This document shows, in pieces, positions 12,001 through 15,000 of a stretch of 15,351 bases of DNA. Numbering within the stretch: the stretch's first letter is position 1; every line of letters starts with the position of its first letter. The position numbers were made by a program. The DNA lies in IMG/VR virus record IMGVR_UViG_2713896791_000011; one strand, given 5' to 3'. Origin of the DNA: a virus. Taxonomy: Duplodnaviria; Heunggongvirae; Uroviricota; Caudoviricetes.

Positions 12001-15000
12001 TGCTGCTCCCAGAAATCCGCGCCCGCCCAGCGGTCAGAACGCAGGGCAAGACCGATTTCCACATTGGCGTGTTTTGACATGAAGCCACGAAATGCTTCCT
12101 CACCAGCCTCCCGGGCTTTACGGTACTCCCGGTACAGAAAGGCCTCATCCACCGAATAACCGAGATTCGGGTTAACCATGGCGAGGTTTTCCATCAGCAG
12201 GTGAGCCCCGCTTTCCACCATTTCAGGAGGATGCTCAAAAATCACCGGCAGAAAGTGCGGATCATGAATTTTGCCGTCACGGACATCCCGGGCATACTGC
12301 AGTTTCTGTCTGAACACCCCGGCGGGCGGTTCATTCGACTGGGTGGTCGTATACACCACAAACCCTTCCGGACGGGAGGCAAGCCCGCCGATGGCTTCAC
12401 GTAGCATGTCTTCCGCCTTGTACTGCTTGCCAAACAGCCACAGTTCATCAATCAGTGTCCCCACGGACTTGATACCGGACACCGTATTCGGATCGGCTGC
12501 CACCACCTTCAGGGTGGTGTCCGTCACCCGATGGGTGATGGTCCGGATATGGGTCTGCACCTGACAGAGGTCATCCAGATCATCGTCCCGTCGTACCATA
12601 TCCCTGGCAGGGTTGAAGGCGTTAGCCGCCACCTCCACGGTCGGGGCCAGAATGGTGTAGCCCGCCGCCTGCCGCCAGTTCAGTAACAGCGCCGTCATCA
12701 TGATCCCCGCAGCCAGCGTGGACTTCGAGTTTTTCTTGGGGATAAGGATAAACACTTCCTTGATATGGCGAACACCGGTCTGCGCATCGTAGGAGCCAAA
12801 CAGGGCCGCCACCAGGTCAAACACCCACGGTGCACAGGACTCCCCGAATGTCGGGCTACCCGGTGCATCCACAATTCGCAGTTGTTTAAAAATCGCCAGT
12901 GCATGTGCAGCCTGGTCCGGATAAATCGGAGCCGGAATAATCGACAGCCCCTTTTTCAGGCGCTCTGCCCAGTCCGGGCAGGCCGTGCTCCACACAGGTA
13001 TCATCCGTTGCCCTCATTATCATTATTCACCACCAGGCGGGGTGGTGGTGGCACCGCAAAACGGTTAGCCGCTTTTTTCGCCGCGTCACCTTTTGCCGAT
13101 TTTTTACCGGCATCCCCTTTTTTATGGTGCGTGAACTGCGCCAGCTTATAAGCCGCATCCAGCGCCAGCCTGGGGTCGGTATTAATGTTCTCCACCAGAA
13201 GACGCCCCATCGCTTTCACCGGATCGGGAAGACCATCCTCCATATATTCAATACCAGGAGACATCACCGCGGACGGTGGCATCTCCGGATTGTTTTCGTC
13301 CGGCTGTGGTATTGCAGCCGCCTCACGGCGACGGGGTTTATCCTCCTGCTCTGATTTTTTCTGCCGGTAAACAGGAACCTCATCCACCTCCACCGTCTCG
13401 CATTGTTTACGGGCTATAAACGCAAGCACCTCCGGATCTTTTGCCAGCTGCGAGCCTTTAACCCTGGCGGTCTTCGCCGAATAACCAGCGGCAATGGCTG
13501 ACGCTGTTTTGTTTTTCCCGGACATGAGCGCCAGCGCAAATTTTCGTTTTTGCGTTGTCAGCACAGCCTCCTCCCGGGTCCAGAACGCACTCAGCCGGGT
13601 ATGGTTCAGCCCATTTTTCCCGGCGTCTCATGCCGCAAATGTTAACTGCTGCCTGGTTAACATTTGCTGAAAAAGCCAGTTAACATTTTTTCCGCACAAC
13701 AAACTGAATAATAAAGATAAAAACCGCAAAAATGCCCGGACAGCCAGTTAACATGTTAACTGCCCTGAAACGGGAATTTTTTCTCTGCGTGAGAGGGGGG
13801 GCGGTGTCCAAAGCGATCTTTTTTTACGCCGGATGATACCCCCCCGGGTCGGGTTACAGTCCGATGATGTCGTCCGCTCTGCCACTACCTCCGGACACCT
13901 CCGGCAGCGTCGGGTCTGGCATACCACTCGCCGCTTCACGAGCAGACTTTTGTCGATGGCATTCGGTACAGAGCGTCCAGAGATTCGTCTNNNNNNNNNN
14001 NNNNNNNNNNNNNNNNNNNNNNNNNNNNNNNNNNNNNNNNCATTCGGTACAGAGCGTCCAGAGATTCGTCTCCTCATTACCACCACCGAACTGAAGTGCA
14101 ATGCGGTGCTCAAGTTCACTGTCACAAAGGTCAACCACACGCCCACAGAGACAGCACTGTCCGGCATCCCTCAGCCAGATACGACGCTTGAGGGAAACCC
14201 GGGCACTACCACTGACCCGACGCTGTTCACCCTTCAGGACATTCACCCGCCGGGTGTTCAGAGTTTTGATTCTGCCCGGTAACGTACGAAGCACAGCCAT
14301 GTAAAATCCTCTCCATATAGCTTGTCACCAGAGGAAAGAAAATGTCATCGAAAAACCGGACCCGCAGAACCACAATCCGCAATATCCGTTTCCCCAATCA
14401 CATGATTGAACAGATCAATATCGCCCTTGAACATAAAGGTTCCGGTAACTTTTCAGCGTGGGTTATTGAAGCCTGCAGAAGAAGGCTGTCAACAGAGCGT
14501 TCGGGTATGAATTACATAATTAAGTAACATGGTGTTCACAGAACACACAGTTACCGGACACATCAGTTTTCCATTCGTCCCCCGGCAGTACAGGCTTCCC
14601 GTCTGACGGGATAGCCTGAAAAAACACAGAAAATTATTTGTTATAATTAATATAACTTACTCAAAAAAAAGCGACGAGAAAATCAGCATCAACGAGCAAT
14701 AAGCGCCAATACGTGATAACAAATGGCAGCCATATTTATCTGCAGTATAAGCAATGGACAGGATAACCACACCAGAAACCGTCAGCATAAAATCCATTTG
14801 AACTTCCCCGGACAAAATCGACTCATCTAAAGATTTACAGCTCTTTTTATTATCAATATGTTAAAAGTAAAATAAACAGATGTTCAATAATACGAATACA
14901 AAAACGTGCTGAAAATCAATGAATCCATTTCTGTGTTATCAATTAATAGTGATAAACATCCGGCTTCTTCCACCATCGCACTGGACAGGCGACTATGAGG

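What the first reader, a model, noticed from the sequence alone, without database searches (positions are those of the whole stretch)
13565..13853. Candidate cos site: palindrome, GTTAAC-containing repeats and G7/C7 runs between HNH and terminase
The region has the position expected for cos in HK97-like phages (between the HNH gene and terminase small subunit). It holds a perfect 18-bp palindrome (13744..13761), an inverted repeat with 9-bp arms, a third copy of CCAGTTAACAT, an AT-rich spacer, and flanking G7 and C7 runs. The repeats nearest the terminase gene may be small-subunit binding sites and the palindrome a nicking site. This assignment is inference.
Basis: partly seen in the sequence, partly recalled or inferred. 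Interest (0 to 1): 0.5.

Follow-up and report, generated by a model that had tools for sequence, protein, structure and literature searches.

The report
Mapped cos site of Stx-type prophage
This is the DNA-packaging (cos) site of a common E. coli Shiga-toxin-type prophage; the ends are cut in the G7 run rather than in the palindrome, and the site was already mapped in a nearly identical phage, so it is ordinary.

Summary
The features are real. Genes run on the minus strand: HNH, a 289-bp gap, terS, terL. The gap is the cos site of an HK97-type 3'-cos packaging module.

The cut is not in the palindrome. Phage Lys8385Vzw has PhageTerm-mapped ends (3' cohesive end CGCCCCCCCT). It is identical to the window from -16 to +229 around the cut. 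The left genome end starts at 13793 and runs toward terS. Acinetobacter phage fEg-Aba01 and Xanthomonas phage Xop411 begin at the homologous base.

The 18-bp palindrome is at 13745..13762 (+32..+49). In most relatives across Enterobacterales the same near-palindrome holds the terS start codon (ATGTTAAC, ATG at +40). In this lineage terS starts at +230 and GTTAAC occurs five times. These sites are most likely binding sites for the helix-turn-helix small terminase; this is inferred, not shown.

The C7 run is a conserved upstream G-run/TATCA element that HK97 also carries. The cos site is already known for this phage group. Its internal parts have not been tested.

The parts
13854..14300 (-). HNH endonuclease gene, the accessory nuclease of HK97-type packaging modules. 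It is inflated by an artificial 50-N run plus a 31-nt duplicated k-mer; the true length is 366 nt.
   Evidence: Pfam PF01844. Lys8385Vzw homologue is 366 nt. N-run and duplication.
13834..13845 (-). Upstream conserved element GGGGGGGTATCA at -52..-41 from the cut. Proposed cosQ-like or TerL/HNH-side element (inference).
   Evidence: A G6-9 run at the same distance is present in nearly all of about 20 cross-genus relatives and in the HK97 right end.
13804..13809 (-). GGACAC block (-16..-11) directly 5' of the cohesive-end sequence. The + strand nick is inferred between 13803 and 13804.
   Evidence: Invariant in 77 distinct family sequences. Conserved across genera.
13794..13803 (-). cosN: the 10-nt 3' cohesive end, CGCCCCCCCT on the - strand and AGGGGGGGCG on the + strand.
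   Evidence: PhageTerm result for Lys8385Vzw (PMC7946995). The record ends in this 10-mer. Homologous CGCCCCCCAT is annotated as a 3' cohesive end in fEg-Aba01.
13772..13793 (-). Left genome end, +1..+22: CTCACGCAGAGAAAAAATTCCC. It is the most widely conserved cut-proximal block and contains an A-tract.
   Evidence: The Lys8385Vzw, fEg-Aba01 and Xop411 records begin here. Cross-genus consensus. An A-tract forms part of the HK97 TerS site at +15..+29 (PMC11331095).
13745..13762 (.). 18-bp palindrome CAGTTAACATGTTAACTG (+32..+49), made of two inverted GTTAAC half-sites. It contains the vestigial ancestral terS start ATG at 13754..13752 (+40). Proposed proximal TerS binding site.
   Evidence: The near-palindrome GT(T/A)AACATGTTAAC holds the terS ATG at +40 in most relatives.
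13689..13744 (.). AT-rich spacer with T-tracts starting at 13732, 13723, 13715 and 13703 on the - strand, 8-12 nt apart. Possibly intrinsically bent (inference).
   Evidence: GC 30-38%. Sequence read directly. No IHF consensus within 1 mismatch.
13635..13688 (.). Distal array of three GTTAAC sites (+110, +133, +148): CAGTTAACATTT 13677-13688, GTTAACATTTGC 13656-13667, GCAAATGTTAACTG 13635-13648. Proposed additional TerS binding sites, specific to this lineage.
   Evidence: This is the least polymorphic non-coding block apart from the invariant 6-nt GGACAC (4 of 54 sites segregating).
13001..13564 (-). terS, small terminase of 187 aa with a GTG start at +230. It has an N-terminal helix-turn-helix domain of the Terminase_2 type.
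   Evidence: PF03592, residues 2-57, 35.8 bits against a cut-off of 26.1. Weak matches to SF6 G1P DNA-binding-domain structures.
11343..13004 (-). terL, large terminase (ATPase plus nuclease).
   Evidence: PF03354 and PF20441. 52% identical to fEg-Aba01 TerL and 48% to Xop411 TerL.

Best explanation
The 289-bp gap is the cohesive-end (cos) packaging site of an HK97-type module (HNH, cos, TerS, TerL) in a long-tailed lambdoid Stx-type E. coli prophage.

Shown by identity to end-mapped phages: terminase makes two nicks 10 bp apart. One is on the - strand between 13794 and 13793, the other on the + strand between 13803 and 13804. This gives 3' overhangs CGCCCCCCCT / AGGGGGGGCG. The packaged genome starts at 13793 and runs toward terS and terL. 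It ends, one genome later, after HNH.

Inferred: the site is modular.
- On the genome-end side lie a G-run/TATCA element (-52..-41) and GGACAC (-16..-11). These are shared with relatives as distant as HK97. They probably serve the TerL/HNH nuclease or termination, like lambda cosQ.
- On the terS side lies the conserved A-tract block (+1..+22), followed by GTTAAC sites.
- The helix-turn-helix N-terminal domains of the TerS oligomer most likely bind the GTTAAC half-sites. These are the palindrome at +32..+49 and three more at +110..+153. The phased-T-tract spacer may let the DNA bend so that proximal and distal sites contact one oligomer. This would be a functional analogue of lambda cosB.
- TerS then positions TerL, helped by HNH, on cosN.

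In most relatives the palindrome contains the terS start codon. In this lineage terS moved about 190 bp away and the motif was multiplied, probably by duplication.
For: Cut position:
- PMC7946995 reports 3' cos and CGCCCCCCCT for Lys8385Vzw.
- Its record ends '...GGACACCGCCCCCCCT' and begins 'CTCACGCAGAGAAAAAATTCCC...'.
- The window is identical to it from -16 to +229, with only 6 differences, all between -57 and -17.
- fEg-Aba01 (TerL 52% identical) has a 10-nt 3' cohesive end CGCCCCCCAT after GGACAC. It was shown by PhageTerm and a heat/anneal gel, and its left end is CGCACGCACAAAAAAAATTCCC.
- Xop411 (TerL 48% identical) begins CCCATTCGCAGAAAAATTACCC.

Architecture: about 20 loci from Kluyvera, Serratia, Enterobacter, Citrobacter, Erwinia, Pantoea, Proteus and Acinetobacter align without gaps around the cut. 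They share the G-run, GGACAC, the +1..+22 block and GT(T/A)AACATGTTAAC. HK97 has a G9 run followed by ATCA and a CGCC-initial overhang at matching distances.

GTTAAC as a DNA site:
- Where terS starts elsewhere, GTTAAC is kept near +35 without the ATG: Proteus L103, and Pantoea L105 with two copies.
- fEg-Aba01 has three non-coding GTTAAA copies at +34, +47 and +58.
- High-GC Pseudomonas and Burkholderia phages keep GTTAATGGC(G/T)TTAAC at the terS start.
- All of these have a PF03592 TerS. Xop411 lacks both the motif and a PF03592 protein in the two annotated ORFs (p01, p02) between its left end and terL.
- Among 77 distinct family sequences, 1 of 30 GTTAAC positions segregates against 35 of 177 other non-coding positions (Fisher one-sided p=0.017).
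- The clustering is far beyond chance.
Against: - No end mapping exists for this exact prophage.
- Its protease-capsid gene carries an in-frame TGA, so it may not package on its own.
- TerS binding to GTTAAC is untested. In most relatives the motif overlaps codons 1-3 of terS, so coding and translation-start constraints confound its conservation.
- In HK97 the TerS site is an A-tract element at +15..+29. A conserved A-tract sits at +12..+17 here, so the main recognition site could be that block instead.
- The co-occurrence of GTTAA with PF03592 TerS rests on few independent lineages.
- The polymorphism test is modest (p=0.017) and the sequences are related.
- No IHF consensus was found. The bend is inferred only from T-tract spacing.
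- The similarity of the upstream half to HK97 is short and was not tested statistically.
Confidence: 0.78

Rival explanations
1. The GTTAAC repeats are non-functional leftovers. Under this view, duplication and decay of the old terS start region (ATGTTAAC...) left copies behind. TerS recognises only the conserved A-tract block at +1..+22, as HK97 TerS recognises +15..+29.
For: The palindrome holds the ancestral terS ATG at exactly +40. Three direct copies of ATGTTAACYRGSC and a 16-nt repeat AGCCAGTTAACAT(T/G)TT look like duplications. A possible remnant TGTCCGGG matches terS codons (D16). The A-tract block is the most widely conserved, even in Xop411.
Against: All five hexamers are intact, with one singleton variant in 77 distinct sequences, while nearby non-coding DNA varies. 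Lineages that lost the ATG kept GTTAAC. An independent GTTAAA array exists in fEg-Aba01. TerS here is a helix-turn-helix PF03592 protein, whereas HK97 TerS has no Pfam match.
Confidence: 0.25
2. One reading: the 18-bp palindrome is the nicking site, and the G7/C7 runs merely flank it.
For: Two-fold symmetry is typical of some nick sites such as lambda cosN. This is a resemblance from general knowledge only.
Against: Mapped ends in three relatives lie 32 bp away, in the G7 run. In most relatives the palindrome lies partly within the terS coding sequence.
Confidence: 0.03
3. The repeats are operators for a regulator of terS expression, either TerS itself or another protein, rather than packaging signals. 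Under this view they act on transcription or translation of the late operon.
For: In most relatives the near-palindrome overlaps the terS ribosome-binding site and start codon. One promoter-like match on the + strand is formed by the repeats themselves.
Against: In this window the sites lie 77-198 bp upstream of the real terS start. The promoter-like match points away from the genes and is a weak consensus hit (9 of 12). No terminator or known RNA element was found. This reading is not exclusive of TerS binding for packaging.
Confidence: 0.1
4. The phage packages by a headful (pac) mechanism and the region is a pac site.
For: PF03592 small terminases are well known from pac phages such as SPP1 and SF6. 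This comes from family knowledge, plus weak structure hits.
Against: PhageTerm called 3' cos for Lys8385Vzw and fEg-Aba01. Cohesive ends were confirmed on a gel for the latter. TerL relatives are cos phages. An HNH gene adjoins the site.
Confidence: 0.02

Closest known systems
cos of Escherichia phage Lys8385Vzw (MT225100; Zhang et al. 2021, PMC7946995)
   Same: Same element. It is identical from -16 to +229 around the cut, with only 6 differences in 289 bp. It has the same HNH, cos, terS, terL order and the same 10-nt 3' cohesive end CGCCCCCCCT.
   Different: The paper reports only the cohesive-end sequence. The palindrome, the GTTAAC array and the G-run element are not described in the passages read. 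The window is a prophage copy with a nonsense codon in the capsid gene.
HK97 cos (10-nt 3' overhang; the HNH protein gp74 stimulates cleavage; TerS site at +15..+29)
   Same: HNH, cos, terS, terL order. A 10-nt 3' overhang starting CGCC. A G-run followed by ATCA about 45-50 bp upstream of the cut. An A/T-tract within 30 bp downstream. The terS start lies 40-50 bp from the cut in most relatives.
   Different: HK97 TerS has no PF03592 match and threads DNA through its tunnel. TerL identity to HK97 itself was not measured; SfI-type TerL proteins in the same search are about 22% identical. The HNH proteins are not significantly similar by BLASTP. HK97 has no GTTAAC array. HNH lies 319 bp from the end there, against about 50 bp here.
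cos of Acinetobacter phage fEg-Aba01 (MT344103; PMC7354433)
   Same: GGACAC followed by CGCCCCCCAT, a 3' cohesive end. The left end is CGCACGCACAAAAAAAATTCCC. There is a G6 run about 45 bp upstream. TerS is PF03592. Repeated GTTAA motifs lie between the cut and terS.
   Different: The motif is GTTAAA in three direct copies at +34, +47 and +58, not inverted GTTAAC. TerS is 31% identical. The host genus is different.
Lambda cos (cosQ, cosN, cosB with R1-R3 gpNu1 sites and the IHF site I1)
   Same: Same logic and layout: an upstream element, the nick site, then repeated sites between the nick and the small-terminase gene, separated by AT-rich DNA that may bend. This comparison rests on established lambda knowledge.
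   Different: Lambda makes a 12-nt 5' overhang, uses a gpNu1-type TerS and has no HNH. No IHF consensus was found here. There is no sequence similarity.

Membership tests
HK97-type 3'-cos packaging site | Lies between an HNH endonuclease gene and terS/terL | tested here: met
   HNH 13854..14300(-), terS 13001..13564(-), terL 11343..13004(-), confirmed with Pfam PF01844, PF03592, PF03354 and PF20441.
HK97-type 3'-cos packaging site | Unique genome ends with a roughly 10-nt 3' single-stranded overhang at this site | tested here: met
   Met by identity, not by experiment on this prophage. The window equals Lys8385Vzw from -16 to +229, and that phage's ends were mapped by PhageTerm. Homologous ends occur in fEg-Aba01, confirmed on a gel, and in Xop411.
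HK97-type 3'-cos packaging site | TerL belongs to the clade of 3'-cos phages | tested here: met
   tblastn gives 48-60% identity to TerL of Xop411, fEg-Aba01 and Pseudomonas and Burkholderia cos-type phages. SfI-type TerL proteins in the same search are about 22% identical; HK97 itself was not listed or compared.
HK97-type 3'-cos packaging site | HK97-type TerS that recognises an A-tract site at +15..+29 through its central tunnel | tested here: not met
   TerS here is PF03592 (helix-turn-helix), while HK97 gp1 has no Pfam match. An A-tract exists at +12..+17, but binding cannot be tested with these tools.
Lambda-type cos (cosQ-cosN-cosB) | 12-nt 5' overhang | tested here: not met
   The overhang is 10 nt and 3' in the mapped relatives.
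Lambda-type cos (cosQ-cosN-cosB) | Repeated small-terminase binding sites between the nick and the small-terminase gene | tested here: inconclusive
   Five GTTAAC sites are in the right place. They are non-random and under-polymorphic. Protein binding was not tested.
Lambda-type cos (cosQ-cosN-cosB) | IHF site within cosB | tested here: not met
   No WATCAANNNNTTR match within 1 mismatch in 13565-13853.
Headful (pac) site | Terminally redundant, circularly permuted ends | tested here: not met
   Published PhageTerm and gel data show fixed cohesive ends in relatives.

The most novel reading that the evidence does not exclude
The cos site is built from two exchangeable halves. The nuclease-side half (G-run/TATCA, GGACAC, overhang) is shared with HK97. 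The TerS-side half has a GTTAAC palindrome that in most relatives overlaps the terS start codon, so that TerS binding for packaging would also shut off its own translation. In the Stx-phage lineage this coupling was broken. The start codon moved 190 bp away and the site was amplified into a five-site, cosB-like array.
Probability: 0.25. Interest if true: 0.4.

Novelty: already known. Interest (0 to 1): 0.2.

Why it matters
The exact cut position and the likely recognition sites matter for three practical reasons. They allow correct genome orientation and annotation of the many Stx1, Stx2a and Stx2c long-tailed prophages. This region is present in 1254 of 5426 complete E. coli genomes, often in several copies. 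They help predict which defective prophages or islands can still be packaged in trans. They also guide the design of cos-plasmid or transduction assays.

Beyond that, this is a textbook HK97-style arrangement. Its ends were already published for a near-identical phage.

Tried and rejected
- A genome-contig scan with the single TerS protein confirmed no relative. Repeating it with a two-sequence alignment gave 20 useful loci.
- Two viral-contig scans returned only relatives 90-99% identical. They were useful only for polymorphism.
- A literature search for the 10-mer sequences returned unrelated papers.
- Rfam found no match at E up to 1. No intrinsic terminator was found, and only one weak promoter-like hit, on the non-coding strand.
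- No IHF consensus lies in the region.
- BLASTP of this HNH against HK97 gp74 was not significant. HNH homology therefore rests on Pfam only.
- The PDB sequence search gave only weak hits to the SF6 small-terminase DNA-binding domain, E 0.2-0.8.
- One viral contig (L074) starts one base before the mapped cut. I did not count it as evidence, because assemblies also break at homopolymer runs and at repeats. L007 and L078 break inside the GTTAAC repeats.
- The vB_EcoS_phi330 record is opened inside terS and says nothing about ends.
- TerS structure prediction was not run. The Pfam assignment was judged sufficient, and a structure could not show DNA specificity.
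Full report
**Context**

All genes in this part of the window run on the minus strand:
- HNH endonuclease, 14300..13854
- a 289-bp gap, 13853..13565
- terS, 13564..13001 (GTG start; Pfam Terminase_2 PF03592 on residues 2-57)
- terL, 13004..11343 (PF03354 and PF20441)
- a prohead protease-capsid fusion gene
- portal
- an HK97/lambda-type tape-measure gene

The 581 bp around the gap are 97-100% identical to 93 phage records. Almost all of these are long-tailed Stx1a, Stx2a or Stx2c converting phages (BP-4795, 2851, 1717, YYZ-2008 and the "Pankowvirus" group). 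The same stretch occurs in 1254 of 5426 complete E. coli genomes, with a median of 2 and up to 8 copies per genome.

**Check of the observation**

- The perfect palindrome CAGTTAACATGTTAACTG is at 13745..13762, one base off the stated coordinates.
- The inverted repeat has 12-nt arms (13635-13646 and 13656-13667), not 9.
- CAGTTAACAT occurs four times exactly, with a fifth degenerate copy.
- Five of the window's eight GTTAAC hexamers lie within 120 bp, against 1.9 expected for the whole window.
- None of 5000 dinucleotide shuffles of the 289-bp region gave five copies of any palindromic hexamer. Eleven gave a palindrome with 9-nt arms.
- G7 (13795-13801) and C7 (13839-13845) are two of only three such runs in the window.

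**Where the DNA is cut**

A paper on the induced Stx1 phage Lys8385Vzw reports a PhageTerm result of 3' cohesive ends with the sequence CGCCCCCCCT (PMC7946995). Its GenBank record, rearranged to the virion ends, finishes "...GGACACCGCCCCCCCT" and begins "CTCACGCAGAGAAAAAATTCCCGTTTCAGGGCAGTTAACATGTTAACTGG...". The window's minus strand is identical to that phage from -16 to +229 relative to the cut. Only six differences occur in the 289 bp, all between -57 and -17.

The left end of the packaged genome starts at 13793 and runs toward terS.

Two independent relatives agree.
- Acinetobacter phage fEg-Aba01 (TerL 52% identical) has a 10-nt 3' end CGCCCCCCAT directly after GGACAC. It was found by PhageTerm and confirmed by a heat/anneal restriction gel. 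Its left end is CGCACGCACAAAAAAAATTCCC.
- Xanthomonas phage Xop411 (TerL 48% identical) begins CCCATTCGCAGAAAAATTACCC.

The palindrome starts 32 bp inside the left end. It is not the nick site.

**Anatomy from comparison**

A scan of one genome per species with a TerS alignment gave 20 loci from Kluyvera, Phytobacter, Serratia, Atlantibacter, Kosakonia, Rouxiella, Enterobacter, Citrobacter, Erwinia, Pantoea, Proteus, Buttiauxella and Acinetobacter. Their TerS proteins are 37-49% identical to the window's, apart from a partial match in the Acinetobacter locus. Anchored on the cut, they line up without gaps. The shared layout is:
- a G6-9 run, usually followed by TA(TCA), at about -52..-41
- GGACAC at -16..-11
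- a variable C-rich 10-mer
- CTCAYGCRCAGAAAAAATTCCC at +1..+22
- the near-palindrome GT(T/A)AACATGTTAAC at +34..+47

In most of these loci, and in Salmonella phage FSL SP-016, the ATG inside that palindrome, at +40, is the terS start codon (ATG TTA ACA = Met-Leu-Thr).

The window keeps the palindrome at exactly the same distance. Its terS, however, starts about 190 bp further on, at +230, with GTG CTG ACA. The extra DNA carries the AT-rich spacer and three more GTTAAC sites at +110, +133 and +148.

HK97's own right end shows a G9 run followed by ATCA and an overhang beginning CGCC, at matching distances. Its left end is unrelated. The upstream half of cos therefore seems to travel with the TerL/HNH side and the downstream half with TerS. 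This last point is an inference from short similarities.

**Are the GTTAAC sites functional?**

Arguments for a role as DNA sites:
- Lineages whose terS start is displaced keep GTTAAC near +35 but lose the ATG. Proteus has one copy and Pantoea L105 has two.
- fEg-Aba01 has three non-coding GTTAAA copies at +34, +47 and +58.
- Phages of high-GC Pseudomonas and Burkholderia keep GTTAATGGC(G/T)TTAAC at the terS start. They do so despite the rarity of the TTA codon in such hosts, which I state from general knowledge.
- All of these phages have a PF03592 TerS. Xop411 shares the +1..+22 block but has neither the motif nor a PF03592 match in its two annotated ORFs upstream of terL.
- Among 77 distinct family sequences, only 1 of 30 hexamer positions varies, and that variant is a singleton. 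By contrast 35 of 177 other non-coding positions vary (one-sided Fisher p=0.017). Apart from the invariant 6-nt GGACAC, the distal repeat block is the least variable non-coding block.

Arguments against:
- In most relatives the motif is also codons 1-3 of terS, so coding constraint confounds its conservation.
- The copies look like duplications of the old start region.
- In HK97 the TerS site is an A-tract element at +15..+29 (PMC11331095), and a conserved A-tract sits at +12..+17 here.

No protein-binding data exist.

**Most likely mechanism**

Shown by identity to mapped phages: staggered nicks at 13793/13794 on the minus strand and 13803/13804 on the plus strand give 10-nt 3' overhangs. The genome is packaged from there toward terS.

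Established for HK97: TerS marks the site, TerL cuts, and the HNH protein stimulates cutting.

Inferred here:
- The helix-turn-helix domains of the TerS oligomer bind the GTTAAC half-sites, that is the proximal palindrome plus the distal triple.
- The T-tracts in the spacer, spaced 8-12 nt apart, bend the DNA so that both groups of sites can contact one oligomer. This would make the array a functional analogue of lambda cosB.
- The G-run/TATCA element acts on the incoming genome end at termination, like lambda cosQ.

I put about 0.9 on the cut position and about 0.55 on TerS binding to GTTAAC.

**Comparison and novelty**

The element is the same as the published cos of Lys8385Vzw. It is a member of the HK97-type 3'-cos class by position, TerL clade and end type. 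Its TerS belongs to a different family from HK97's. It works like lambda cos in layout but fails lambda's defining features: the overhang type, the TerS type and the IHF site.

The cos site itself is already known. The sub-structure (ancestral start codon inside the palindrome, the five-site array, the shared G-run) is not described in the papers I read, but it is a modest refinement.

**Negative results**

There is no Rfam match, no terminator and no IHF consensus.

**Caveat for this particular copy**

The protease-capsid fusion gene has an in-frame TGA where Lys8385Vzw has TGG (W344, window 10248-10250). This prophage may therefore depend on a related resident prophage for capsids, or the base may be a sequencing error.

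Noticed in passing
window 13991-14040 (flanks 13960-13990 and 14041-14071); window 7396-7445 (flanks 7378-7395 and 7446-7463): Two runs of exactly 50 N are each flanked by a duplicated k-mer, 31 nt and 18 nt long. This is the signature of contigs joined at overlapping ends. The first adds 81 nt in frame to the HNH gene, giving 447 nt against 366 nt in Lys8385Vzw.
   Followed up: partly
window 10248-10250 (- strand), within the protease-capsid fusion gene 9342..11279: There is an in-frame TGA where Lys8385Vzw has TGG (W344*). The 1938-nt genes otherwise differ at 29 nt. This is either a defective prophage or a sequencing error. Single N bases also occur at 9792 and 9855.
   Followed up: partly
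L112 (LC567822.1, PPompW prophage) 2775-4233; equivalent to window ~13839-13845: An IS110-family element, ISEc20, sits inside the conserved G/C run next to cos in the PPompW prophages. Beyond it come tRNA genes and Q, so HNH and the lysis genes are missing there. This suggests a target preference for the run, or an IS-mediated deletion that cripples packaging.
   Followed up: partly
window 13754..13680 (- strand): The vestigial terS start ATG inside the palindrome opens a 24-codon hydrophobic ORF, MLTGCPGIFAVFIFIIQFVVRKKC. It stops in the next GTTAAC repeat. It is probably meaningless but sits in the late transcript.
   Followed up: no
L006 (HK97 NC_002167) 39000-39732, last 60 nt: The right end of HK97 carries a G9 run followed by ATCA about 43-51 nt before its 10-nt overhang. 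This matches the G-run/TATCA element of this family, although the TerS proteins are unrelated.
   Followed up: partly
E. coli complete genomes: This cos region is present in 1254 of 5426 complete genomes, with a median of 2 and up to 8 copies per genome. Several prophages in one cell therefore share the same packaging signal.
   Followed up: no
window 13800 and 13795; family loci L007-L086 (whose listed coordinates are 12 too low): The cohesive-end sequence is itself polymorphic within the family. In the first 78 loci, position 4 of the 10-mer is G in 50 and C in 26, and position 9 is C in 62 and G in 16. The window and Lys8385Vzw carry CGCCCCCCCT. Ends of co-resident phages may therefore not all be mutually cohesive.
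   Followed up: partly
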